A DNA stretch of 57,725 bases from a virus (taxonomy: Duplodnaviria > Caudoviricetes), in the IMG/VR virus record IMGVR_UViG_3300034064_000874, positions 1-57,725 of that record. One strand, written 5' to 3'. The notes below the pieces were generated by a model. The model saw only the letters and a list, made by a program, of their open reading frames with translations. It was not told where the DNA came from and ran no database searches. Numbering within the stretch: position 1 is the first letter of the stretch; each line of letters opens with the position of its first letter. Of the stretch, positions 43,295 through 57,725 are shown piece by piece. The translations under genes and the position numbers were made by a program.

Positions 43295-44134
43295 TTACGG
43301 GTTGCTGGCCATCATCGATGGTAGCTGCGCCATGTACTGATTGGCGGCCTTGCGCTTGGTCGGCCAGGATTTACGCGCACCACCCACGACGGGCAGCACG
43401 TCTCTCAGGCCAAAATCACGGCGATTGCCCAGCTTCCCGGGCTGGTTATAGAAGGCAATGGCTGAGCGAGCCGCCCACACTGGATCCTGGGAAACCAGAT
43501 CGGGGTTATTGGCAATCGTGCCGCCGGTCCTGTAATAGTCGTCGACGTTCTCGTAGGCCTGGCGTCCAGTCAGATGCACCATGCCGCGGCCTCGGTACTT
43601 GTAGCCGTCTCCAGGCTGCGTGTTGCCCAGGTCAGGACGATCGCCATACAGGGCGTTGTACTGGCCCTCCTCATCCATGCCGGCAATTGACTTCGCCTGC
43701 TTGATGACGGATGGCTTCTTGCCGCCGAATAGCTTGGCAATCCGTTTGGGGTTGGTATATCGACCATGTTCGGCCATGCCGGAGAGCGGGAAACCGCCGG
43801 TTTCGCCATGTGCCACACCCATCATCGCGGCAATCGCCCGGTCGGAATAACCCGCCTGGCGCAGTTCCTTGATGTAGGTCTGCTTGTAGTCGTCGGAGGT
43901 GTAGTTGCGAGCCTGAGCCATCGGCGCTGCCTGAGTTGGCTGCGCGGCAGCCTGAGCGGGCTGAGTCGGACGTCCGAAATACTCGCGCATGTCCTTGGTG
44001 GCCAGGCGCATCGGCATCATGTCGCCGGTTTCCGTGTTCCGGAGCAGGTAATCACGGTTATTCGCCTCGACAATCTGCCGGGCTTCTTCCGGCGTGGGCA
44101 ATCCTTGTCGACGGGTATTCTGTAAGCCAGCCAT
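43295..44134 (-). CDS. Glycoside hydrolase family 19 protein with N-terminal extension
   Basis: HGETGGF; LGNTQPGDGYKYRGRGMVHLTGR. Confidence 0.85.
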   Translation of the reverse strand: MAGLQNTRRQGLPTPEEARQIVEANNRDYLLRNTETGDMMPMRLATKDMREYFGRPTQPAQAAAQPTQAAPMAQARNYTSDDYKQTYIKELRQAGYSDRAIAAMMGVAHGETGGFPLSGMAEHGRYTNPKRIAKLFGGKKPSVIKQAKSIAGMDEEGQYNALYGDRPDLGNTQPGDGYKYRGRGMVHLTGRQAYENVDDYYRTGGTIANNPDLVSQDPVWAARSAIAFYNQPGKLGNRRDFGLRDVLPVVGGARKSWPTKRKAANQYMAQLPSMMASNP

Positions 44135-46260
44135 TACATCGCCTCCAGTTCGCTCTCGAGCATCGCCTTGCGGTTGTTGATGTTCGCGCCCTCCATGTCG
44201 ATCATCCTGCGCTCGGCATCCAGCCCGCTCATCTCGATATCCACCGCCGTTCTCGCGGTCTCAGTCTGGATCTTCTCGATCTCGGCCATGGTTTTCTGAT
44301 TCTGGATCTCGGCCTGCTGCGCCTTGATCTCGTGATCCTGGGCCTTCAATTCGAGCTCAGCCTGCTTCGCCTGGGCAGCCATCATCTGTGGCGCCTGCTG
44401 AAGCTGCTGGATCGCCTGCTCAGCCTGCTGCAGCTGCTGCATCATCTGCTGCTTCTCGGGATCCATCTCTTCTTCACCGGTCTGCAGCCCCAGCATCTGA
44501 CGCATCTGGTCGGCCAGCTCCTGCCGGTTGGGCAGTTCGGAGAGTTCCACGAATGCTGGCGCCATGATCGCCTGAGCTTCGGGCGGCATTGCCTGGATCA
44601 CCTGGGTGAGCATGGTCATCTGCTGGGCGCGATAGGACGGAGTAGAAGGAACATCCTCGAGCGCCACCTTCACCTGGCTGCGGCTGACGTCGTTCATGAC
44701 CTCAAGCGCCCCGGTTTCTGGGTTCTGTACTGGCACATTCAATTGAATGACGCGCTTGCGCTTGCCTTCGCCCACCACAATCTGAGTCTGCTCGCGCATG
44801 TCCTCGCGAATCATGTCGACCAGCATCTCGCCCACCATGCGGCGTGAATAACGGTAGTTGTCGGAGAGTTCGGCCAGGGTCGTGGTGCCCTGCTCGACCA
44901 AGGAATTGATCGCCAGGCCTGAAGTCGCCTTGGAATCACTGCCCATCAGGGCGTTATGAATGCCGGAGACATTCTGGATGCCGGCCTCGGCGTCCTTCAT
45001 GATCTCGTACTGCTGATTCGACAGCGCCAGGTCCGACTCCAGCATGAAGCTGTTGGCGTTGCGGCGCTGTGGGTTCAGCACGATGATCGAATCCGGCCTC
45101 GCCACCTCATCAGCCACATCCCGGAACGAGTTCACCCGGGTATCCAGGGCATCCGAGTCGGCGATAATCCGCTTGGATGACAGGAGATTCATCAACTTGC
45201 GGCGGCGGGCGTTGATCTCATCCTGGGGCGAGATCATATTGCGGATCAGCCCGTAGGGAACGCCCGTCAAGTCCTCCTTGAAGCCCCAGAAGGGCACATA
45301 GGGCGGTCTCTTGGTTTTGGCTCTGCCATCATAAAGGCGATGCGGGCCCGCCCAGATGGCAAGCCTCTGCTGCGAGAACACGGCTTTTTGCGGCTGAACC
45401 AAGCCCATCGACACGGCGGCCAGGTGAGTTTCGTTCTTTGGGTCGAACTCAACCACCCGATCCTGGATCTTCAGCACATCCGCCCGAATCGGCGCCTTGT
45501 ACCAGACCTCAAACAGACAAACCCGCTGGCGATCCGCGTTCTGCCACTCAAAATCCGCCATACCGGATCCGCGCTGCTGGTCGAAAGCATTGGCCAGCTC
45601 AGGATCTTCCGAAACAATCTCCAGCCAATTCCCGTCCCAGCGTCCGCGGGAAGCGTCCAGCACTTTCTTGTGCCGGGGAAAGTACAGGGCGACCACGTCG
45701 TAATCGAACCAGCGCTTGCGGATGGTGTAACGCCCATCTGAGAGGTCAGGCTCCTTCGCCAGCCAGTCCCAGTACATCTCGCGCCGATGGACGTTCTGAA
45801 CGCGGTAACGATATTTGAATGGGTCACTTTCTCTGCTCACCTCCACCCAGCCCACACCGGCCTTCACCTGGCCGGCATACGCATCCGAGCAAGCCCGGTC
45901 AGCCCGGGTCTCGCGCTCCACCTCATGCAGGCGCTGGCTCAGAGCCTCGGCAACGTCTTGGAACTCCTGGCTATCAGCAATCACACGCCAATCCGAGCGG
46001 GTCTTCGCCTCCAGGCCCAGCACCAGATCGATATTCGGCTTGATCAGGTTCGTGATCAGCGGTGCCATGCCCTTTTCTTCCAGGGCCGCGAGGGTTTCGG
46101 CATCCAGCTGATTGCCGTCGTAATAGTCGGCGGCCCTGTCGGCCTCCTTGCGCCAATCCGGCTGATCGCGAATATCTTCGACGATCCGCTGATACTGGTC
46201 GTAGCTCAAACCCTTGTTTGACGTGATTGAATCGAAGCGCTGCTCCATCAGATTCTCCAA
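44134..46260 (-). CDS. Portal protein (P22-like)
   Basis: YYDGNQL, PYVPFWG, PYGLIRNMISPQDEIN and SGLAI motifs; Q-rich barrel tail. Confidence 0.92.
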   Translation of the reverse strand: MENLMEQRFDSITSNKGLSYDQYQRIVEDIRDQPDWRKEADRAADYYDGNQLDAETLAALEEKGMAPLITNLIKPNIDLVLGLEAKTRSDWRVIADSQEFQDVAEALSQRLHEVERETRADRACSDAYAGQVKAGVGWVEVSRESDPFKYRYRVQNVHRREMYWDWLAKEPDLSDGRYTIRKRWFDYDVVALYFPRHKKVLDASRGRWDGNWLEIVSEDPELANAFDQQRGSGMADFEWQNADRQRVCLFEVWYKAPIRADVLKIQDRVVEFDPKNETHLAAVSMGLVQPQKAVFSQQRLAIWAGPHRLYDGRAKTKRPPYVPFWGFKEDLTGVPYGLIRNMISPQDEINARRRKLMNLLSSKRIIADSDALDTRVNSFRDVADEVARPDSIIVLNPQRRNANSFMLESDLALSNQQYEIMKDAEAGIQNVSGIHNALMGSDSKATSGLAINSLVEQGTTTLAELSDNYRYSRRMVGEMLVDMIREDMREQTQIVVGEGKRKRVIQLNVPVQNPETGALEVMNDVSRSQVKVALEDVPSTPSYRAQQMTMLTQVIQAMPPEAQAIMAPAFVELSELPNRQELADQMRQMLGLQTGEEEMDPEKQQMMQQLQQAEQAIQQLQQAPQMMAAQAKQAELELKAQDHEIKAQQAEIQNQKTMAEIEKIQTETARTAVDIEMSGLDAERRMIDMEGANINNRKAMLESELEAM

Positions 46261-47762
46261 TTGCCTCGTCGGCTGCGGTCAACCGGGTTTTGTTGCATGT
46301 CTCTGGATGGCAGGGCGAAGGTCAAGGCGAGCGCGTCGGCTCTATCAGGGCTCTTGAGTCCGCGCTTCTTCATCTGTTCTTTCGGCTCGAGTTTCATCCG
46401 CCTGGATGAGTCATAGGTGTATTGCGGGCCGGTGAGATCCGCCATCAATCGATTGTCATCAGGTAGTGCGGCCGGCTTGTCTTCCAGCCACTCCTTCATC
46501 TCGCCCCACATCTCGTCGCGGCGAATGCTGTAAAGCTCGGTCTGAACGGCTCGCTCACCGAAGTGAATGCGGTTAACGGGATAGCCGAGCTCGATCAATC
46601 GATCAGCCACGCCACTTCCCACGCCAGTACAGTCGACATTGATCATGTCAGGGCCGACCCGATCAGCGGATCGAGCCACCAGACCCACAGTTTCCATGGT
46701 GCCCTTGCCATGCCAGGATTGAATCTCATGGACAACACGGCCTTGTCGAACGCAGAGCGCGGTGGAATCAGCGCCGTATTCAGCGGGATCCACTCCGAAA
46801 ATGATTGCGCCACTGGCCTCAGTCTTCTCTTTGCCGTCGGCGATCGCCCGGGTAACCAGGTCCATCGAGATCAGCGGATCACCTTCCACTCGCTTAAACG
46901 CCAGGCTGGCAGTCGCCGGGTATTCCTGGTCAAAAAGCGTCCGGTCGCCGCGGAAGTCAGTGATCAGCTTCTGCTGTCGCCAATAAGCCTGAGCGGTGGT
47001 TAACCCAAAAGCCTGGGCATATTCCGCATCCTCACCTTCAGGCGCCCACCCATCCGGCGGCTCCTTCGTGTATTCGCTCTGCCACATCCAAGGCACGAAC
47101 ACCGGGATATAGTCAGAAGATCCATCCTCGGCGTCCTGCCACATCCCGTGAAACAGATTGCCGACACCATTGGCGGTCGATTCGAGAATGATCTCGGTGC
47201 CTGGCGCATCAGGGACAATCTGACCAATCCCTGCCATGTGATCCTCAGCATTCGGCCAGAAGGCCACCTCGGATCCATGGAAGAACTGCGCCGTCGCGGA
47301 TCGTCCTGTCCCGGATGATCCTGCTGTCGCGACCGAGAATTCGCTCTGCATGTGATCAAATACCAGCTGGCTGCCCGAGTTCGCCCGGGTGCTCGGCTTG
47401 ATCCAATCCGGGCAAAGGTCGTGATATCGGCGCGTCATGCCGAATAAGTTGCTGGTCGCCTCGGCTAAGTGCGTCAGGATGTAAGCTCGCTTGCCTTGAT
47501 TCAGGCTGGTGAGCCAATAAAAGCGTCCCTCGGTGTAAGTCGACATGCCCTGCTGACGACCCTTCAGGACCACGGCACGGACTTTCCCGGTATCAATCTT
47601 CTGCTGCTGGATCTGCTGATGCAGGTACTGCTGCGCCTGGTTCAGCTGAAACGGGATGATCTCGCCATCTTTGGCCCGGATATTCAGGGCAACCGGCGCG
47701 TATCGTGAAAAATCAGTGGTGAGGACTTTGAGCTTTTTCTTGGATTCGTCACTGAGCAGCAT
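46248..47762 (-). CDS. terL: Terminase large subunit
   Basis: LKGRQQGMST, HGSEVAFW, ILESTANG, GVDPA and SPDRADALAL motifs. Confidence 0.95.
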   Translation of the reverse strand: MLLSDESKKKLKVLTTDFSRYAPVALNIRAKDGEIIPFQLNQAQQYLHQQIQQQKIDTGKVRAVVLKGRQQGMSTYTEGRFYWLTSLNQGKRAYILTHLAEATSNLFGMTRRYHDLCPDWIKPSTRANSGSQLVFDHMQSEFSVATAGSSGTGRSATAQFFHGSEVAFWPNAEDHMAGIGQIVPDAPGTEIILESTANGVGNLFHGMWQDAEDGSSDYIPVFVPWMWQSEYTKEPPDGWAPEGEDAEYAQAFGLTTAQAYWRQQKLITDFRGDRTLFDQEYPATASLAFKRVEGDPLISMDLVTRAIADGKEKTEASGAIIFGVDPAEYGADSTALCVRQGRVVHEIQSWHGKGTMETVGLVARSADRVGPDMINVDCTGVGSGVADRLIELGYPVNRIHFGERAVQTELYSIRRDEMWGEMKEWLEDKPAALPDDNRLMADLTGPQYTYDSSRRMKLEPKEQMKKRGLKSPDRADALALTFALPSRDMQQNPVDRSRRGNWRI

Positions 47763-48687: not shown

Positions 48688-48782
48688 GACACCGCCCAGA
48701 ACAGCAGGCCAGCCAGGCTCATGGCGATGACGGTCACGATGAACACGCCGATCATTACCTGGCTCAGGAATTCGTCTCTCAT
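48684..48782 (-). CDS. 32-aa single-TM peptide
   Basis: Read manually; coupled to the endolysin stop and the next start. Confidence 0.5.
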   Translation of the reverse strand: MRDEFLSQVMIGVFIVTVIAMSLAGLLFWAVS

Positions 48783-49333
48783 CAGATTGCCTTCAGGAAC
48801 TGCGACCAGAGCTTTTTCCGGTCAGCCATACCGTTGGTGCCGCCGTTAATCAGCTTGGTAATGCGGGTGAATTCCTGACGGTCTGCCAACTCATTGGCGC
48901 CGATCATGTCCCAGTAATCTGCCGCACTGAGCGCCGCCCATCTGGGGAGCGTCAGCTTGTCAGGCTCAGCCTCAAAATCGGGCACGCCCAGCTTGGGGAA
49001 GCGGGCACGGAGGCGCTGCGTCACCCGACGGTGGTTATAACGGCCAGTCGTCTGAATCAATCCATGGCCCCGGAAGCGGGATCCGTCGCCCTTGTAGATA
49101 TTCCCCAGGTCTTTGCGGCCTTCATAGCGCCTCTGAGCGAATGTCGGGCCCCAGATTTCTGAGGTGTACTTGAGTCGGCCAGATTCATGGCCCACCTGAG
49201 CCAGAAAGATGCTCATGCGGTTGCGGTTGTTGATGCCGTACAGCTGCATGGCCTCGTTTACGTGAGGCAACCACCAGTCGGCGCGCTCTCGGGTAATCCC
49301 CATTCCGCGCTGCAGCTGGTCGGCCTTGATCAC
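48782..49333 (-). CDS. Endolysin, GH19 family
   Basis: FLAQVGHESG, DLGN...DGSRFRGHGLIQTTGR and INGGTNG motifs; GTG start. Confidence 0.92.
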   Translation of the reverse strand: MIKADQLQRGMGITRERADWWLPHVNEAMQLYGINNRNRMSIFLAQVGHESGRLKYTSEIWGPTFAQRRYEGRKDLGNIYKGDGSRFRGHGLIQTTGRYNHRRVTQRLRARFPKLGVPDFEAEPDKLTLPRWAALSAADYWDMIGANELADRQEFTRITKLINGGTNGMADRKKLWSQFLKAI

Positions 49334-49584
49334 TCTCGCCCCTCTTTCAGAACGTCTTGGATGTCGTCCTTGCCCAGCGTGTTGAGCTCCTGAGCGATGT
49401 CGGGCTGGGTATTGCCGCGGATCAGGAAGAAGACGACGATCAACAGGGTCCACAGGGTCGGCAGCAGCCACTTGCGGGTGTCTTCGTCAAAGTCCTTGCT
49501 GAACTCCATCGCAGCCAGCAGCAAAGCAACGATATTAGTGCCGGAGTAGGTGCTGAGCCCGTACTTTTTGATCAGGTTGCCCAT
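49330..49584 (-). CDS. Putative holin
   Basis: Two hydrophobic helices, charged C-terminus; upstream of endolysin. Confidence 0.6.
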   Translation of the reverse strand: MGNLIKKYGLSTYSGTNIVALLLAAMEFSKDFDEDTRKWLLPTLWTLLIVVFFLIRGNTQPDIAQELNTLGKDDIQDVLKEGRE

Positions 49585-50634: not shown

Positions 50635-50817
50635 TTAACCCCCTATGCTGAAGTTTCTGGTTTTGTCGTATTCGACCAGGGATTTCACCTGATCCTGGTA
50701 GATCTCAGCCCCCAGTGAATCCCACCGGTCAGAGGCCAGATATTTTTCTTCGGCCGTCAGATAGCTCTCTTGGCGATACTGGCCGGCCCGGTCGATGATG
50801 TAGATCGTGTGGTTCAT
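50635..50817 (-). CDS. Hypothetical protein
   Basis: GGAG RBS; ATGA coupling. Confidence 0.6.
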   Translation of the reverse strand: MNHTIYIIDRAGQYRQESYLTAEEKYLASDRWDSLGAEIYQDQVKSLVEYDKTRNFSIGG

Positions 50818-51044
50818 TCTTCTTCTCCAATGGTTTTTGCGAAGGCCTCGCCTTTCGTCATGGCCTCGACAATGCTGTTGCCGTGAATGACGGTGTGCCC
50901 TTTGATCACGCAGGCATACCAGCTTGGCGGCGTCTGCTTAAACACAAACAAATCAAGGCCATTCACGCGCTTGGTGTGGACCGGGGCGCCGGTATTGAAT
51001 CCAGCATTCCCCTCCACCCGTCTCCAGCCAGGTATCCAAGTCAT
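50814..51044 (-). CDS. Hypothetical protein
   Basis: GAGGG RBS; ATGA coupling. Confidence 0.6.
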   Translation of the reverse strand: MTWIPGWRRVEGNAGFNTGAPVHTKRVNGLDLFVFKQTPPSWYACVIKGHTVIHGNSIVEAMTKGEAFAKTIGEEE

Positions 51045-51214
51045 GCTGCCCTCTCGTAATTCGGTGGTTTTGGTTCAGGCTGCCGGCCGCGCCAGTCGCA
51101 GAGCGAGCAGCACCAGTTCTGACTGACCGCCTCCCAGATGTCGGCTCTCTGCCCGCATGTCGGGCACCAGCCTGGCTGGGTGTTGGGTGTATCGATGTCG
51201 TCATAGGAGCCCAT
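51041..51214 (-). CDS. Small zinc-ribbon protein (MGSYDD...WCPTCG...WCCSLCDW, 57 aa)
   Basis: Read manually; GGAGG RBS; coupled at both ends. Confidence 0.65.
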   Translation of the reverse strand: MGSYDDIDTPNTQPGWCPTCGQRADIWEAVSQNWCCSLCDWRGRQPEPKPPNYERAA

Positions 51215-51399
51215 CAGTCACCTCCAGCCGGTCGGCAAAGCCCATGCTCAATGAGAGCGGTCGCCGTGCGGCCGAACCAGCCCTGCAGCTGCCAGCACAA
51301 GCCGGTGTCGATCAGCTGCTGCCAGGCCTCATAAATCTGGTCCTCGGACTCTGGTGCGATCCAGCCTTCCGCGATACCAACTGCGTCGAATGTTTGCAT
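51214..51399 (-). CDS. Conserved small phage protein
   Basis: AWQQLIDTGLCWQLQGWFGRTA..LI..G; CAGGAG RBS. Confidence 0.75.
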   Translation of the reverse strand: MQTFDAVGIAEGWIAPESEDQIYEAWQQLIDTGLCWQLQGWFGRTATALIEHGLCRPAGGD

Positions 51400-51404
51400 T
51401 GTTG

Positions 51405-51457
51405 TCTCCTGTTTTTGGGCGTAAGGAAGCGCCGTGGGTGGATGGCCGTCCTTGGCC
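51405..51457 (-). repeat. Leader repeat copy 3: GGA-loop hairpin plus CUUCCUUA-loop hairpin plus SD
   Basis: GGCCAAGGACGGCC...GGCG-CTTCCTTA-CGCC-CAAAAACAGGAGA. Confidence 0.85.
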
Positions 51458-51464
51458 AGGTTTG

Positions 51465-52271
51465 TCAGTGAACCAGGTCGACCAGGGCCTCAGTAAGAGT
51501 CCACAGCGACTTGTTCAACCGAACATTTTCCGAAACCGAATTGACGGCCCGGGTGGTGGTGCGACCGCCATTGCTGTTGCGACCGCGCAGACCGCCCTTG
51601 ATCAGGTTCTCCTGAACCCGGTTGTAGATCGTCCAGGCGTCATTCGAGCGATCAGCAAACCGGCGCAGGCTCAGCAGTTGATCCGCCTTGATCGGCGCCT
51701 CTTCATCCCAGCGCAGTTGCAGAGCCGCGTTGGCATAGGACTGCTGCTGGTACTCGGTCAGCTGCACCGAGCGGAAATCATCCACCCGGCCCTGAATCAG
51801 CTCGCTGTTCTCGATCACCCGGTAAGCACCCTCGATCACGTCGTCCACCACGTTGCCGCTGTGGCGGGTGCGGATCGTTTCGAAGGTGGAATCAGCCACG
51901 ATCAGCCCGTTGGAGCAGACCAGGCGGAACACGCCGGCGGAGAGCTGGTAGCTGCTGGTCCCATCATGGGAGTTCAGCAACACGATCTCAGGCGCCAGCT
52001 CCTTGCCGAAGCCGTCATCGCGACGGAACCGGACAACGTGGCGGGTGTAACCGAAGTTCTCCGCCTTCCGGCTGCGAGCCTCACCGGCATAGACCGGCAG
52101 GAAGCCCTCGTTGCGTAACGCCTCAACAGCGTCGATGGTGGGGATGAAGGTGTAGCGGTGGCTACGGCCTGGGGCGGCGGTCTCAGCGAATACGCTAGGC
52201 GCCAGACGTTGGATCTCGTAGTTTTCGAGCGGACGGCCCTGACCACGGATGGAATTGATGACTGCGTTCAT
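51465..52271 (-). CDS. DUF932/DUF945 family protein
   Basis: APSVFA, RS.RYTFIPT, EIVLLNSHDGTSSYQL.AGVFRLVCSNGL and NRVQENLIKGG motifs. Confidence 0.9.
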   Translation of the reverse strand: MNAVINSIRGQGRPLENYEIQRLAPSVFAETAAPGRSHRYTFIPTIDAVEALRNEGFLPVYAGEARSRKAENFGYTRHVVRFRRDDGFGKELAPEIVLLNSHDGTSSYQLSAGVFRLVCSNGLIVADSTFETIRTRHSGNVVDDVIEGAYRVIENSELIQGRVDDFRSVQLTEYQQQSYANAALQLRWDEEAPIKADQLLSLRRFADRSNDAWTIYNRVQENLIKGGLRGRNSNGGRTTTRAVNSVSENVRLNKSLWTLTEALVDLVH

Positions 52272-52276
52272 TGATG

Positions 52277-52333
52277 TCTCCTGTTTTAAGCCGTAAGGAA
52301 GCGGCGGGTTGGTAAAAGCGGCCGTCCGTGGCC
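52277..52333 (-). repeat. Leader repeat copy 2
   Basis: GGCCACGGACGGCC...GCCG-CTTCCTTA-CGGC-TTAAAACAGGAGA. Confidence 0.85.
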
Positions 52334-52342
52334 TTGGTTTAC

Positions 52343-52615
52343 TTATGCAGTAATACCGAACTCGGCGAAGAACTCGGCGCCGGGGTATCCATCTGCAATG
52401 ACTGACTCCAGAGTTCCGAGGGTGTGACGTATGAATTCGTCAGAAGGTGTTCCGAACGCATCACATGATGCGAGAACACCCAGTTCTATGCATGTTTCGC
52501 CTGCGTTATTTAACGCACTTGCCCAAGTGTTCCAGATATCCCGGTCGATTTCGTAGCCGACAATGCCTGAAATGCGGCTGAAGGTTTCCCTGGCGGAGTT
52601 GTTTGTGTAGCTCAT
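52343..52615 (-). CDS. Acidic hypothetical protein
   Basis: CAGGAG RBS; first gene after the promoter. Confidence 0.75.
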   Translation of the reverse strand: MSYTNNSARETFSRISGIVGYEIDRDIWNTWASALNNAGETCIELGVLASCDAFGTPSDEFIRHTLGTLESVIADGYPGAEFFAEFGITA

Positions 52616-52622
52616 TTTTTTA

Positions 52623-52652
52623 TCTCCTGTTTTTGCCCGTAAGGAAGCGGGT
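52623..52652 (-). repeat. Leader repeat copy 1
   Basis: ACCCG-CTTCCTTA-CGGGC-AAAAACAGGAGA. Confidence 0.85.
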
Positions 52653-52687
52653 GGCTGTCTCGAGCCCTGTGCTCTCGACTGGTGATC

Positions 52688-52715
52688 AGTCTAAAGCATT
52701 ATCCGAAGCTGTCAA
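52688..52715 (-). promoter_or_regulatory. Sigma70-type promoter
   Basis: TTGACA-N16-TAGACT with AT-rich upstream sequence. Confidence 0.75.
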
Positions 52716-52741
52716 TACTTTTCCGTAAATTATTTGAAGCA

Positions 52742-53095
52742 TCAGCGCATGCTCAACCAGGCCTCGACCAACCACCGTTCCGCCCGATCAATGGCTGGCC
52801 CTCTGATTTCCTCCTGGCCCACGTAGCGCTTGTAGAGCAGTCGGTGATAGCGATGCCCTGCCCGGCAGTTTTCGCGCATCAGCGCCAGCAGGCGGCCGAT
52901 CTCCTGGACATCCGCCGGGATCCAGATCCCCGGTGGCAGAGGCCGTCCGCCATCCGTCCGCCGGGACTCCCCGATACGCCCCAACAGGCTGCGCTGGCTC
53001 TTCGCCGAATACAGCCCGTTCGCCTCCCACTCAGCCCAGTGCATGAGCATGTCGCGGATGATCTCCAGCGGCGTGACTTTCTTTTTCAGAGCCAT
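52742..53095 (-). CDS. Possible Q-like late antiterminator
   Basis: IRDMLMHWAEW N-terminal motif; last gene of the nin-like region, before the promoter and lysis genes. Confidence 0.45.
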   Translation of the reverse strand: MALKKKVTPLEIIRDMLMHWAEWEANGLYSAKSQRSLLGRIGESRRTDGGRPLPPGIWIPADVQEIGRLLALMRENCRAGHRYHRLLYKRYVGQEEIRGPAIDRAERWLVEAWLSMR

Positions 53096-53141
53096 AGGAA
53101 CAGCAAGATGCAGGCCAAGGGAATCAGCATCAGCAGGTCGC

Positions 53142-53411
53142 TCATGGGTTCTCCCCTTCCAACTGCTTGACGACCAATTGTGCGTAACCCGCCGCATCAG
53201 ACCATGAGTCCACGTAGGCAGGATCCCCGTTCAGGATTCTGGCCAGCTTGTGTCCAATCATCTCCATCGCCTCGCGCTGGCTGTCGGTCATGTACTGCCA
53301 GCTCGGAGACGCCACCATGATCCGCTTGAATCGCTGGGAAATATCCGCATGACCATTGAACGTCCCATACCGCTCGCCGCGCTCTTTCAGGATTTCGTTG
53401 ATGTCAGTCAT
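53142..53411 (-). CDS. DUF6378-like protein
   Basis: ERGERYG.F...HKLARILNGD...DSWSDAAGYA. Confidence 0.75.
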   Translation of the reverse strand: MTDINEILKERGERYGTFNGHADISQRFKRIMVASPSWQYMTDSQREAMEMIGHKLARILNGDPAYVDSWSDAAGYAQLVVKQLEGENP

Positions 53412-55831: not shown

Positions 55832-55989
55832 CGGTAGCGCTGGGTATCCAGGATCACCTCGTCATCCTTGATCACCTTCACCTCGGCAGGCCGACCGAAC
55901 AGGCGAGAGATCTCGGTGATCATCTCTGCATGCTCGGGCAGCTCCTCCTGCACTCGCTTCCAGTCCTCAGCCTTCTGGCTCACTCCCAT
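55828..55989 (-). CDS. Hypothetical protein
   Basis: Coupled to the helicase stop. Confidence 0.5.
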   Translation of the reverse strand: MGVSQKAEDWKRVQEELPEHAEMITEISRLFGRPAEVKVIKDDEVILDTQRYR

Positions 55990-57725
55990 CTCAGGTACTC
56001 CCGCGGGCGGCCGTTGTGAGCGCTGACAAACTGATGCGAGGGTGAATGCCACCAGAGGCTGATGCGAGGCTCGTCATCGCCGTTACGCTGCTTCTCGCAC
56101 CGGCAGATAGCGTCGGGCTGCTTTTCGACCTCAGCCAGGTCCAGATCGGAGAGATTGCCCTTCCGGATCTTGTCTTCCTTGACCCGGTTCCTCCACCAGA
56201 TCAGGACGTTGTCAGCCAGGTCGGTGATGGCGCCGGATCCCTTCACGTCGAACTTGCCGCCAGGCTTGGCGTCGTCCTCGCCCTTCTTCATGTGGGCCAC
56301 GAGAATGACGTGGACGTCATGCTGCTTGGCGAAATCAGTCAGCTCGTCGGTGAACTCGCGTTGACGGTTGTAATCGTCGAGATCGATGTTCAGCTTCGAG
56401 AGGTTGTCGATGACGAACAGCGTGATGCCGTACCGACGGCGGGCGTAGGCAAAAACCTCCAGCAGCAGGTCTGTCTTGGCTGTGGTGGCCACGTCGAACA
56501 CCCACAGGGATCCTGATAGCCACTTCATGGCGGTCCCGATAAACTGATCGGTGGGCGTGATGACGGCGCAGGCTTGACGCACCAGGCGGGCAATCCACTT
56601 GTGCGGCTTGAACTCCATCGAGGCCACGCAGGCTTTCTCACCCTGACTGATGGCGTCGATCGTGAACTGACCGGCCGCCTCGGACTTTCCGTGGCCATTC
56701 ACGCCGGCAATGATCGTCACCTCACCCGGGCGGAACCGGAAGGTTTTCGCCTTATCCCAGGGCATCGCGAAACCCATCTGGTCTTCGCTGGGGTTGAAGG
56801 CCGCCAGAACGTCATCCAGGTAGTCGCCGGCATTGCGCAACTCGGAGGGGTCCATCGACTTGGACCGGGTCAGGCAGACAGTCATGTCCTGGGTAGAGAC
56901 CCCGGACAGCAGGCAGTCATTGGCATCCTTGTGCGGCAGCTCCACCACCCGGCAGCGATGGCGCCCGAGTCGATCGACGATCTCGCCGACCGCCTTCTTG
57001 CCGGCGTCGTCCATGTCCATCGAGATCAGGATGTCGTCGAATCGCTCGAGGTTTTCAAGCTCATGCTCGATCCAGTCCTGCTTGGCCCCATTACCTCCGC
57101 CGAACGGGACCGACAGCGCCGATACCCCGTACTCGCGCCAGGCCATGGCGTCGAACTCGCCTTCGCAAATCACGACCGCCCTTGCCGCATCAGGCACAGC
57201 CTGCCAGCCGAACAGGCAGGGCCGGAGGTTGGATTCGGAGAGGCGGAATTTCTTGTCCTGCAGCGAGCGGAACTTGACCATCGTCAGGTCGCCCGCAGGG
57301 CTGTAGGACGGGAACACGATCGCATTCCGATGCTGGCCCACTCGAAACGCCGTGATCGTGGCAGGCGACAGCAGACGCTCCTGGGTCATGTAGATCCAGG
57401 CCTCGGACGTCTCCGCCTGATCAGGCTCGACGGGCTTGGGCTTGGCATACTCCCGGGGCGGGGTCGCGAATCTCGGCTCCTTGTCGACGACGCCGAGGTA
57501 GTCTTTCGCTGCCTGGATGGCGCCCGGCACGGTCATGCCGTTCACCTCGCGCCAGAGGTCGATCAGGTCGCCCGACTGACCAGTGGCGAAGTCACACCAG
57601 CGGCCGGCCTTGTCGCCGGTCATGTGGACCCCAAGGCTGTCGCCAGACTCACCGCCGACGGACCCGCACTTCCACTCTCGGCCTACACGTTTGCCATTCG
57701 GCAGCAGGAGCTTGACGACCGACTC
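55980..57725 (-). CDS. Bifunctional TOPRIM primase / SF4 helicase (T7 gp4/Twinkle-like), 5' end truncated by the window
   Basis: ICEGEFDA, MDMDDAG, Walker A GVNGHGKS, Walker B FVIDNL and VKGSGAITD; frame open to the window edge. Confidence 0.93.
   Translation of the reverse strand, partial: ESVVKLLLPNGKRVGREWKCGSVGGESGDSLGVHMTGDKAGRWCDFATGQSGDLIDLWREVNGMTVPGAIQAAKDYLGVVDKEPRFATPPREYAKPKPVEPDQAETSEAWIYMTQERLLSPATITAFRVGQHRNAIVFPSYSPAGDLTMVKFRSLQDKKFRLSESNLRPCLFGWQAVPDAARAVVICEGEFDAMAWREYGVSALSVPFGGGNGAKQDWIEHELENLERFDDILISMDMDDAGKKAVGEIVDRLGRHRCRVVELPHKDANDCLLSGVSTQDMTVCLTRSKSMDPSELRNAGDYLDDVLAAFNPSEDQMGFAMPWDKAKTFRFRPGEVTIIAGVNGHGKSEAAGQFTIDAISQGEKACVASMEFKPHKWIARLVRQACAVITPTDQFIGTAMKWLSGSLWVFDVATTAKTDLLLEVFAYARRRYGITLFVIDNLSKLNIDLDDYNRQREFTDELTDFAKQHDVHVILVAHMKKGEDDAKPGGKFDVKGSGAITDLADNVLIWWRNRVKEDKIRKGNLSDLDLAEVEKQPDAICRCEKQRNGDDEPRISLWWHSPSHQFVSAHNGRPREYLRWE

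What the first reader, a model, noticed from the sequence alone, without database searches (positions are those of the whole stretch)
51405..52652. Thrice-repeated translational leader: covarying hairpin with an anti-SD loop, a probable H-type pseudoknot
Seen on the mRNA strand before three consecutive genes: stem-CUUCCUUA-stem, an A-rich linker, CAGGAGA, then AUG. The stems differ but always pair (CCCG/CGGG, GCCG/CGGC, GGCG/CGCC), while loop and SD are invariant. Loop UUCCU can pair with the downstream AGGAG, and the loop resembles the 16S rRNA 3' end (CCUCCUUA). Known: preQ1-I and SAM-II/SAM-SAH riboswitches use a hairpin whose loop pairs with a downstream SD region, but this loop does not match their consensus as I recall it. 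Inference: a new riboswitch-like or protein-gated translational switch, which may also serve as a recombination joint for gene shuffling.
Basis: partly seen in the sequence, partly recalled or inferred. Interest (0 to 1): 0.8.

Follow-up and report, generated by a model that had tools for sequence, protein, structure and literature searches.

The report
Pseudoknot leader before swappable phage genes
A roughly 35-base RNA fold that hides the ribosome-binding site sits before three neighbouring accessory genes of an uncultured phage; related phages keep it through compensating mutations, it matches no catalogued RNA family, and these genes are swapped in and out at it.

Summary
Three copies lie on the minus strand (51397-51442, 52269-52314, 52613-52660), where shuffles give none. 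Each has a 4-bp stem, the loop CUUCCUUA, an A-rich linker, AGGAGA and a start codon.

I collected 20 distinct leaders of this type from 13 other viral, metagenomic or bacterial records. In an ungapped alignment of 18 of them, both helices of the proposed H-type pseudoknot covary in one fixed register.
- **Stem:** 2 of 4 pairs swap C-G and G-C.
- **Loop to Shine-Dalgarno helix:** 4 of 5 pairs change on both sides. The pair nearest the linker reads UA 9, CG 3, GC 3, AU 2, UG 1, with none unpaired.

Rfam 15 has no match.

Contigs of related phages join exactly at the leaders, so the downstream genes are lost or replaced as cassettes.

Best reading: a new, portable translational operator that sequesters the Shine-Dalgarno sequence, and that also serves as the joint for cassette exchange. 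Nothing here tests whether a ligand, a protein or temperature gates it. Seven unpaired positions are invariant, which keeps a preQ1-I-like mini-riboswitch possible.

The scan has noted analogous, non-homologous loop-to-RBS leaders on other phage DNA.

The parts
52688..52715 (-). Sigma-70-like promoter candidate (TTGACA, 16 nt, TAGACT) ahead of the first leader
   Evidence: 10 of 12 hexamer matches. The region has 2 such sites against 1.6 expected in shuffles, so this is weak on its own. By eye, similar hexamers lie upstream of the leader in L299 and L253.
52653..52666 (-). Upstream hairpin A of leader W1 (GGCU-CGAGAC-AGCC)
   Evidence: Read. It aligns with hairpin A of W2 and W3, and its closing pair changes on both sides (C-G to U-A). 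This hairpin is specific to this phage; other lineages carry unrelated hairpins at this place.
52613..52660 (-). Leader W1: C/A-rich run, S1 52648-52651 with 52636-52639, loop 52640-52647, linker 52629-52635, SD 52623-52628, ATG 52613-52615
   Evidence: (55.5 bits).
52343..52615 (-). Cassette gene 1, 90 aa, no Pfam or PHROG family
   Evidence: In contigs of runs X12 and X19 this gene and leader W2 are absent together (joints 52271 to 52620 and 52271 to 52622).
52320..52333 (-). Upstream hairpin A of leader W2 (GGCC-ACGGAC-GGCC)
52269..52314 (-). Leader W2: S1 52302-52305 with 52290-52293, loop 52294-52301, linker 52283-52289, SD 52277-52282, ATG 52269-52271
   Evidence: (65.3 bits).
51465..52271 (-). 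Cassette gene 2, 268 aa, DUF932
   Evidence: PF06067, E 1e-46; phrog_12094, unknown function.
51443..51458 (-). Upstream hairpin A of leader W3 (UGGCC-AAGGAC-GGCCA)
51397..51442 (-). Leader W3: S1 51430-51433 with 51418-51421, loop 51422-51429, linker 51411-51417, SD 51405-51410, ATG 51397-51399
   Evidence: (68.6 bits).
51214..51399 (-). Cassette gene 3, 61 aa, DUF7417
   Evidence: PF24192, E 2.5e-9. It is absent in a contig of run X5 and replaced by 488 other letters in a contig of run X19, with the joint at its ATG in both.

Best explanation
Each copy is a self-contained cis-acting translation-initiation operator on the mRNA.

Structure (shown by covariation). A 4-bp hairpin (S1) carries an 8-nt loop. 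Loop positions 3-6, and often 2-6, pair with the first 4-5 bases after a 7-nt A-rich linker. Those bases are the Shine-Dalgarno sequence (S2). Together S1 and S2 form a compact H-type pseudoknot of about 35 nt.

Function (inferred). While S2 is formed, the 30S subunit cannot pair with the SD. The fold therefore lowers, or conditionally gates, translation of the gene behind it. My rough energies put S2 on the same scale as the hairpin alone, so the fold should be an equilibrium. The ribosome, protein S1, temperature or an unknown factor could shift it.

Cassette role (shown in contigs of related phages and in two related loci). The roughly 45-nt leader, about 70 nt in this phage with its upstream hairpin, travels with different accessory genes. 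Its repeated copies are the places where such genes are gained, lost or replaced.
For: (1) The three window copies are far beyond chance (3 matches against 0 in 100 shuffles).

(2) Homologous leaders exist elsewhere.
- A covariance model built only on S1 and sequence found variants before DUF932 homologues in 3 of 65 IMG/VR loci (L036, L039, L041) and before their upstream genes. It also found them in 2 of 80 metagenome loci.
- Exact or loop-free pattern scans added L004/L005, L012, L022/L024, L233, L235/L236, L238, L253, L277, L299 and L301.
- Every member was recovered by the model or by a pattern that left all five variable middle loop bases free.

(3) One search counts an ungapped MAFFT alignment of 18 distinct leaders from 13 records.
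- S1 pairs 7-22 (CG 11, GC 6, other 1) and 8-21 (CG 14, GC 4) covary.
- S2 pair 16-30 reads UA 9, CG 3, GC 3, AU 2, UG 1, with 0 unpaired. Pair 15-31 reads CG 12, UA 6. Pair 14-32 reads CG 17, UA 1. Pair 13-33 reads UA 9, CG 6, UG 1, other 2.
- 94.4% of cells are paired, against 36-57% when the 3' partners are slid by 1-3 columns. 0 of 500 shuffles reach the observed covariation score.

(4) S2 covers the SD itself (AGGAG, GAGG, CAGG or GGAG).

(5) L036a has a 6-bp S1 and an 11-nt linker, as H-type geometry would require.

(6) 11 columns of the motif are invariant in all 18 rows. Seven of them are unpaired: loop positions 1, 7 and 8, and linker A25, A27, A28 and C29. Meanwhile the flanks and the SD-ATG spacer vary.

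(7) Energies: hairpin alone -3.8 to -4.7 kcal/mol; loop-SD duplex -2.5 to -7.7 kcal/mol, computed as a two-strand estimate.

(8) Cassette exchange.
- L041 carries a RadC gene between two leader copies, where L138 has one leader directly before the next gene. The leader is 96.8% identical over 94 nt.
- Contigs of runs X12 and X19 join 52271 to 52620 and 52622. A contig of X5 joins 51202 to 51397. A contig of X19 has 488 other letters between 51217 and 51397.
Against: - No transcript, probing or reporter data exist, and no RNA run holds the stretch.
- Folding energies are unremarkable (z -0.3 to -0.95). No pseudoknot-capable folding program was available, so the stability of the whole fold is my rough estimate.
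- Two leaders (L235, L301) have A at loop position 3 opposite A. That leaves 3 contiguous S2 pairs plus one isolated pair.
- The fifth S2 pair (12-34) is formed in only 12 of 18 rows.
- A register-free test showed loops pairing no better with their own SD than with those of other lineages, because every SD shares GGAG.
- AAAAC-AGGAGA-N5-7-ATG without the hairpin is a common ribosome-binding context in the bacterial order sampled. The invariant linker bases may therefore reflect ordinary RBS preference rather than tertiary contacts.
- Natural leaders of the same lineages lack the loop or the complementarity: L041:1553-1586 has the loop deleted, and the hairpin before DUF932 in L004 has the loop CGACUA. 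The fold is dispensable for at least some genes.
- Rows are related, and several come from one phage. Counts are of sequences, not of independent events.
- L253, which supplies one G-C variant of pair 16-30, is followed only by a 19-aa ORF.
Confidence: 0.55

Rival explanations
1. It is a very small ligand-sensing riboswitch with the fold of a class I preQ1 aptamer: stem, short L1, SD-containing P2, A-rich L3. A small molecule binding at the S1/S2 junction stabilises the pseudoknot and switches off translation of the phage accessory genes.
For: The topology and sizes match that design. Seven unpaired positions lining the junction and the linker are invariant in 18 of 18 leaders while both helices change. 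The fold is marginal in energy, as a switch needs.
Against: The regulated genes share no pathway. They are a 90-aa unknown, DUF932, DUF7417, RadC-like JAB, a 98-aa family, an MSAY.. family and others. There are three copies in one operon. The Rfam riboswitch models give no match at E up to 10. L2 is only UA. The invariant A-rich linker also occurs in ordinary leaders of the same host group. No ligand candidate exists.
Confidence: 0.12
2. It is the operator of an RNA-binding protein, from the phage or the host. The protein recognises the hairpin (invariant CG-C.....UA-CG) and locks or opens the pseudoknot, co-regulating all cassettes that carry it.
For: The closing pairs and loop positions 1, 7 and 8 are invariant. 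Copies within one phage share nearly the same loop: the window 3 of 3, G001 2 of 2, L039 1 nt apart. That would suit a common trans-factor.
Against: The same canonical loop occurs in at least six separate records, including a lone chromosomal copy in Dechloromonas sp. H13 (1 true copy in that genome). A phage-specific factor is therefore unlikely. Within-phage similarity is equally explained by duplication and recombination of the leader. I found no candidate protein common to the loci, and I did not search systematically.
Confidence: 0.13
3. The hairpin and the strong ribosome-binding site are simply a conserved, portable gene-boundary module. Its selected role is as a short homology for cassette exchange or as an mRNA 5' stabiliser. 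The loop-SD complementarity has no regulatory consequence.
For: Joints in related contigs fall at the leaders. The same leader precedes different genes: L041 against L138, L299, and the loose ends at 51397 and 51405. At about 45-70 nt, the leader is a workable homology for phage recombinases (recalled general knowledge).
Against: A pure DNA homology or a plain hairpin does not predict two-sided compensatory changes between loop bases and bases 14 nt downstream. Nor does it predict that the partner should be the SD.
Confidence: 0.12
4. It is a DNA-level site for site-specific recombination, folded as single-stranded DNA like an integron attC site, and the operon is an integron-like cassette array.
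For: There is an array of promoter-less cassettes behind one promoter, each bounded by a structured repeat. Cassette presence or absence varies among related contigs.
Against: The joints are not at one fixed base: 52620 against 52622, with 2-4 filler letters. The element sits at the 5' end of each gene and contains its SD. By eye I saw no attC-type R'/R'' core (recalled consensus). No integrase was looked for next to the array.
Confidence: 0.03

Closest known systems
Class I preQ1 riboswitch (Rfam RF00522)
   Same: It is a compact H-type pseudoknot of 30-odd nucleotides. It has a short stem and a loop that pairs with a downstream segment containing part of the SD, and the two are joined by an A-rich linker ending in AAC. 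Translation is blocked when the second helix forms. (The family description is recalled; the topology of the present motif comes.)
   Different: The covariance model gives no match at E up to 10. The loop is 8 nt, with only UA between S2 and S1, instead of a longer L2 carrying the ligand-pairing C (recalled). There are no queuosine genes nearby, there are several copies per operon, and no ligand is known.
SAM-II / SAM-V riboswitches and other SD-sequestering pseudoknot aptamers
   Same: H-type pseudoknot in which the helix formed with the hairpin loop buries the SD (recalled).
   Different: Those are about 50 nt with a ligand-lined triplex and stand before methionine/SAM genes. No Rfam match here.
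Mu-gpT-DE RNA motif (Rfam RF03012)
   Same: A phage intergenic motif whose stem pairs CCU with the AGG of the next gene's AGGAGA...AUG, as the cmscan alignment shows.
   Different: It scores 9.9 bits against a gathering score of 49. Its model is a plain hairpin enclosing about 35 nt, not a loop-to-SD pseudoknot, and it has a different gene context (downstream of Mu gpT, recalled).
Protein-gated leader pseudoknots (E. coli rpsO/S15, T4 gene 32)
   Same: A pseudoknot in the translation-initiation region that governs 30S access (recalled).
   Different: Those are single autoregulatory sites bound by the gene's own product. Here one leader serves many unrelated genes, and no binding protein is known.
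Integron cassette arrays (attC-bounded)
   Same: Promoter-less genes in series behind one promoter, each bounded by a structured repeat, with cassette content varying between relatives.
   Different: The repeat is a 5' translational leader on the mRNA, not a 3' attC. The joints are imprecise. No integron integrase or attC core was identified.
Loop-to-RBS leaders of phage homing-endonuclease cassettes noted earlier in this scan (e1-5843879, e1-5904403)
   Same: Per those notes (unchecked by me): conserved folded leaders of mobile phage gene cassettes in which a hairpin loop pairs with the ribosome-binding site.
   Different: They involve other phages, other and larger folds, and other genes. 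A look-up by sequence found no similarity (nothing found).

Membership tests
H-type RNA pseudoknot (structural class) | A hairpin stem (S1) supported by covariation | tested here: met
   pairs 7-22 (CG 11, GC 6, other 1) and 8-21 (CG 14, GC 4). The two inner pairs never vary. on a model-made alignment agrees (GC 8, CG 4; CG 7, GC 6, AU 1).
H-type RNA pseudoknot (structural class) | Loop bases pair with a segment 3' of the stem (S2), supported by covariation | tested here: met
   4 of 5 S2 pairs change on both sides. 70 of 72 cells are paired in pairs 13-16 with 30-33. Slid controls give 36-57% paired.
H-type RNA pseudoknot (structural class) | The fold forms in the RNA (probing or structure) | not testable with these tools
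   No probing data and no pseudoknot-capable energy model were available. One search gives only separate hairpin and duplex energies.
preQ1-I riboswitch (RF00522) | Scores at or above the family's gathering threshold with the Rfam covariance model | tested here: not met
   No match at gathering in the whole window. No match at E up to 10 in 50800-53200, 52600-52700 or 52255-52350.
preQ1-I riboswitch (RF00522) | Conserved ligand-contacting bases, notably a C at the 3' end of the loop that pairs with preQ1 (recalled) | tested here: not met
   The last two loop bases are UA in 18 of 18 leaders. The family feature itself is recalled, not taken from a call.
preQ1-I riboswitch (RF00522) | Association with queuosine synthesis or transport genes (recalled) | tested here: not met
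   The downstream genes are DUF932, DUF7417, RadC-like JAB and families without annotation.
Mu-gpT-DE RNA (RF03012) | Scores at or above the gathering threshold | tested here: not met
   9.9 bits against 49, E 5.4 in a 96-nt search.
Any Rfam 15 family | A match at the gathering score anywhere in the window | tested here: not met
   0 matches among 4227 families. The best sub-threshold hits are unrelated: sR40 at 19.9 of 50, Erse at 16.2 of 138, RybB at 12.4 of 40.
Integron attC site | An adjacent integron integrase, conserved R''/R' core sites and a precise crossover point | tested here: inconclusive
   The joints differ by 2 nt and carry filler letters, which argues against a precise crossover. 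Core sites were checked only by eye against a recalled consensus. No integrase was searched for.

The most novel reading that the evidence does not exclude
The leader is the aptamer and expression platform in one of a new riboswitch class, the smallest yet at about 35 nt. Like preQ1-I, it binds a small molecule at the S1/S2 junction, which is lined by the invariant C1, U7, A8 and the AAC end of the linker. Temperate phages would use it to tie translation of swappable accessory cassettes, possibly anti-defence genes, to a host metabolic or infection signal.
Probability: 0.12. Interest if true: 0.9.

Novelty: new variant of a known kind. Interest (0 to 1): 0.6.

Why it matters
Leaders that sequester the Shine-Dalgarno sequence are well known, and pseudoknot versions are known mainly as riboswitches and ribosomal-protein operators. 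This one is a new, very small family with covariation in both helices. It is carried as a portable unit by unrelated accessory genes of uncultured temperate phages and by a few bacterial loci (in Methylococcaceae and betaproteobacterial MAGs and in Dechloromonas sp. H13), and it sits exactly at the points where those genes are exchanged.

It gives three things:
- a compact, testable model for how phage 'moron' cassettes bring their own translational control;
- a concrete case of a functional RNA element that also serves as recombination homology;
- a candidate for ligand or protein screening, because seven unpaired bases are invariant.

It could also serve as a ready-made 35-nt translational damper for synthetic constructs in proteobacteria.

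Tried and rejected
- **Rfam.** The whole window at gathering gave nothing, and three sub-windows at E up to 10 gave only unrelated sub-threshold hits.
- **Annotated collections.** blastn of the region and of a 46-nt leader found no homologue in cultured phages or in PLSDB plasmids. tblastn with TerL and DUF932 found only distant relatives (below 45% identity), so no host could be named.
- **Exact pattern in genome contigs.** Of 20 stretches, 3 are convincing (L012, L022, L024) and 1 is doubtful. The doubtful one is L021, with a 3-bp stem before a short-chain dehydrogenase gene; I left it out of the later alignments, though it is in A3. The other 16 look like chance.
- **Model R2 on 151 genomes of the order around Dechloromonas sp. 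H13.** 38 genomes had hits at E up to 0.001. Among the 30 best places I inspected, only the known G005 copy has the hairpin. The rest are ordinary CA-rich leaders with AAAACAGGAGA. Lower-ranked places were not inspected.
- **Register-free test of own against foreign loop/SD pairing.** It was not discriminating.
- **Chance estimates for a 4-base complementary run.** About 0.09-0.14 per loop, so this is weak support on its own.
- **Alignment A4.** MAFFT split the 3' stem strand in three rows, so I did not use it for counting.
- **Rows left out of A13.** L004 and L036a (longer linkers, though by eye they fit the same pairing), L021 (doubtful), and near-duplicates or second fetches of the same contigs (L024, L132, L138 twice, L236, L234, L242, L297).
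- **Ideas considered and dropped.**
  - Lambda-type boxA/nut site: CGCUUCCUUAC resembles a recalled boxA, but the variable loops of the relatives do not.
  - CsrA/RsmA site: hairpin A of W2 and W3 has an A(N)GGA loop, a motif I recall. W1 and all other lineages lack it.
  - Kissing between the hairpin A and hairpin B loops: possible only in W3.
  - Intrinsic terminator: there is no U-run on the mRNA strand.
- **Expression.** No RNA holder is listed. The run labelled RNA-Seq (X19) is flagged as probably DNA, and contigs cannot show expression.
- **Literature.**
  - DUF932 with 'pseudoknot': 0 papers.
  - The 12-mer of stem plus loop, as DNA or RNA: 0 occurrences in the 10 papers listed, which are ranked by number of terms held. 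The 133 hits to the 10-mer look like unrelated primers.
  - Five-term search: 1 paper, PMC5737381. I read passages only, and they do not mention such a motif. Its supplementary consensus diagrams could not be seen and might bear on novelty.
  - DUF932 alone: 13 papers. I read passages of one preprint, which gives no function.
  - H-type pseudoknot, Shine-Dalgarno, phage, leader: 2 papers, seen as listing only.
Full report
**What is in the window.** The window is a whole IMG/VR virus record of 57,725 bases, rated 98% complete. The finding lies in a minus-strand operon. That operon sits between the replication and DNA-metabolism genes (primase-helicase 55980-57623 and others) and the lysis and packaging genes (endolysin-like 48782-49471, large terminase 46248-47762, portal 44134-46260).

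A promoter-like site lies at 52688-52715 (TTGACA, 16 nt, TAGACT; 10 of 12 matches). Such sites are not enriched in the region, so this is weak evidence. Three ORFs with real intergenic gaps follow:
- 52343-52615, 90 aa, no family;
- 51465-52271, DUF932;
- 51214-51399, DUF7417.

The next small ORFs abut or overlap and have no separate leader.

**The observation.** On the mRNA strand each of the three genes is preceded by a C/A-rich run and a 4-bp stem: CCCG/CGGG, GCCG/CGGC or GGCG/CGCC. The stem encloses the loop CUUCCUUA. A 7-nt linker follows (CAAAAAC or UUAAAAC), then AGGAGA, 5-7 nt, and AUG.
- The 27-nt pattern matches 3 times, against 0 in 100 shuffles.
- RNAfold returns the hairpin as the minimum-energy structure in each leader, with unremarkable z-scores.
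- W2 and W3 share a longer unit of about 70 nt. It includes an upstream hairpin, GGCC-A(C/A)GGAC-GGCC. W1 has a covarying version, GGCU-CGAGAC-AGCC.

**Not a catalogued family.** Rfam 15 gives no match at gathering in the window. Permissive scans of 2.4 kb and of two windows of about 100 nt give nothing relevant. The best hits are sR40, Erse, RybB and Mu-gpT-DE, all far below threshold. Cultured phages and plasmids hold no similar DNA.

**Relatives.** The members were found as follows.
- The exact loop-linker-SD pattern occurs in one other IMG/VR contig, in two copies (L004, L005).
- It also occurs in 3 convincing and 1 doubtful of 20 matching stretches of the species-level genome collection. 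The convincing ones are L012 (a Methylococcaceae MAG), L022 (Dechloromonas sp. H13) and L024 (a betaproteobacterial MAG). The doubtful one is L021.
- A covariance model holding only S1 and sequence was run over 65 IMG/VR loci that encode DUF932 relatives. It found diverged copies directly before DUF932 in L036, L039 and L041, and before the gene upstream of each.
- Of 80 metagenome loci, 2 carry copies, and both are close relatives of those.
- Pattern scans of IMG/VR that left all five middle loop bases free, or left the decisive bases free, added L233, L235/L236, L238, L253, L277, L299 and L301. Most other matches to these patterns lacked a stem and a start codon, and I treated them as chance. 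For example, pattern hits gave 5 with a perfect stem, of which 4 are members.
- The motif is rare. It occurs in 3 of 65 and 2 of 80 DUF932 loci, and in 1 genome among 151 of the order sampled, judging by the 30 best places I inspected.
- That last scan also showed that AAAAC-AGGAGA-N-ATG without the hairpin is a common leader in those bacteria.

**The fold.** Eighteen distinct leaders with a 7-nt linker align without a gap through column 35. I counted one fixed structure on that alignment.
- S1 is columns 7-10 with 19-22. S2 is loop columns 12-16 with columns 30-34, the first five bases after the linker.
- The two outer S1 pairs swap C-G and G-C (11:6 and 14:4). The inner two never vary.
- In S2, four of five pairs change on both sides:
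  - 16-30: UA 9, CG 3, GC 3, AU 2, UG 1, none unpaired;
  - 15-31: CG 12, UA 6;
  - 14-32: CG 17, UA 1;
  - 13-33: UA 9, CG 6, UG 1, other 2.
- Overall 94.4% of cells pair. Sliding the partners by 1-3 columns gives 36-57%. None of 500 column shuffles reaches the covariation score.
- The two sub-alignments give the same picture.
- The rows are related and several share a phage. These numbers therefore show consistent compensation, not a count of independent events.
- Because S2 is the SD itself, the pseudoknot and 30S binding exclude each other.
- The one leader with a 6-bp S1 (L036a) has an 11-nt linker, as the geometry would need.

**Points against or limiting.**
- L235 and L301 have A opposite A at pair 13-33.
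- Pair 12-34 forms in 12 of 18 rows.
- A register-free comparison of own against foreign loop/SD pairs is uninformative.
- A leader with the loop deleted (L041:1553-1586) exists. So does a same-style hairpin without loop-SD complementarity, before DUF932 in L004.
- L253 is followed only by a 19-aa ORF.
- Hairpin and duplex energies are modest: -3.8 to -4.7 and -2.5 to -7.7 kcal/mol. I could not compute a true pseudoknot energy.

**Mechanism.** The two helices and the inclusion of the SD in S2 are shown. That the fold lowers or gates initiation is inferred.

Eleven motif columns are invariant in all 18 rows. Seven of them are unpaired: loop positions 1, 7 and 8, and four linker bases. This goes beyond what simple occlusion needs, and it resembles the junction and A-rich linker of class I preQ1 aptamers, as I recall that family. 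The linker bases are also typical of ordinary leaders in these hosts. The genes served have nothing metabolic in common, and no riboswitch model matches.

I therefore rank the readings as follows:
- an ungated or physically gated attenuator, 0.55;
- a protein-gated operator, 0.13;
- a ligand-gated riboswitch, 0.12;
- a mere boundary module, 0.12.

**Cassette exchange.** L041 and L138 share a 94-nt leader module at 96.8% identity. In L138 it directly precedes a 98-aa-family gene. In L041 it precedes a RadC-like gene, which is followed by a second, loop-less leader copy and then that same gene.

Contigs of four coded public runs were laid on 51150-52760.
- **X12 and X19:** they join the DUF932 start codon (52271) to 52620 or 52622, inside the SD-ATG spacer of W1. 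This removes the 90-aa gene together with leader W2.
- **X5:** one contig joins 51202 to the ATG of the DUF7417 gene (51397).
- **X19:** one contig has 488 other letters in place of that gene.
- **Loose ends at 51397 (X5) and 51405 (X12):** by eye they read as the start of an MSAY.. protein. That is the family found behind the leader in L012, L022 and L301.

In L299 the DUF7417 homologue is the first gene behind the promoter-like site. The leader is thus the joint at which cassettes come and go. The joints are not at one fixed base and carry filler letters. That fits homology-assisted or illegitimate recombination followed by selection better than site-specific recombination.

**Comparison and novelty.** The motif works like the expression platform of preQ1-I or SAM-II riboswitches and like protein-gated leader pseudoknots. 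It is not a member of any Rfam family tested. My literature searches found no description. I could not see the supplements of PMC5737381.

Earlier notes of this scan describe analogous, non-homologous loop-to-RBS leaders before phage homing-endonuclease cassettes (e1-5843879, e1-5904403). Another describes a different structured cassette before a DUF932 gene (e1-5754930). I did not test any of these.

**Verdict.** This is a genuine, rare, previously uncatalogued pseudoknot leader: a new variant of a known kind. Interest is 0.6, because the structure is well supported and the cassette link is unusual, while the function and any gating are untested.

Noticed in passing
window 52320-52333 and 51443-51458 (minus strand); 52653-52666: The upstream hairpins of W2 and W3 have hexaloops ACGGAC and AAGGAC. 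That is the A(N)GGA-in-a-loop form I recall as the CsrA/RsmA binding site, with a second GGA in the SD about 45 nt downstream. W1 has CGAGAC instead, and other lineages have unrelated hairpins.
   Followed up: partly
window 19031-19061 and 19316-19347 (minus strand): Two leaders share the C/A-rich run, CAGGAGAC and the spacing to ATG, but have no hairpin (18.1 and 18.6 bits with model R1). They lie inside the giant-gene region that another first-reader note (e1-6281424) describes as nested peptides.
   Followed up: no
L041:1553-1586: A third leader copy in this phage keeps the flanks, linker and SD, but the loop and part of the stem are deleted (CCCCGA-TCG). It is a natural pseudoknot-less version, standing before the 98-aa-family gene.
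   Followed up: partly
L004:70-114: The DUF932 gene of the second canonical-loop phage is preceded by a same-style hairpin (CGGG-CGACUA-CCCG) and UCAAAAC. Its loop is not complementary to the more distant AAGGAG.
   Followed up: no
L253:1037-1135: Here the leader lies just after a promoter-like TACAAT and a 10-bp hairpin. It is followed only by a 19-aa hydrophobic ORF starting at GTG, or by ATG-TGA, immediately upstream of the terminase genes.
   Followed up: partly
L021:2414-2462 (minus strand): A Paracoccus MAG has the identical loop, linker end and SD before a short-chain dehydrogenase gene, but with only a 3-bp stem. This may be chance or an independent capture.
   Followed up: no
window 52646: One diverged contig of run X19 lacks one base inside the W1 loop. 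That would give a 7-nt loop, which by eye is an even better complement of AGGAG (table 4).
   Followed up: no
window 51150-52760: Contigs from runs labelled lake water, aquaculture, groundwater and wastewater cover most of this stretch at 85-100% likeness. 20 runs from 12 studies were listed as holders. Only four were laid.
   Followed up: partly
L196-L224 (bacterial genomes of the order around Dechloromonas sp. H13): Many ordinary genes there have C/A-rich leaders ending in AAAAC-AGGAGA. Several have an unrelated GC-rich hairpin immediately before the A-run, for example L200, L201, L205 and L215.
   Followed up: no
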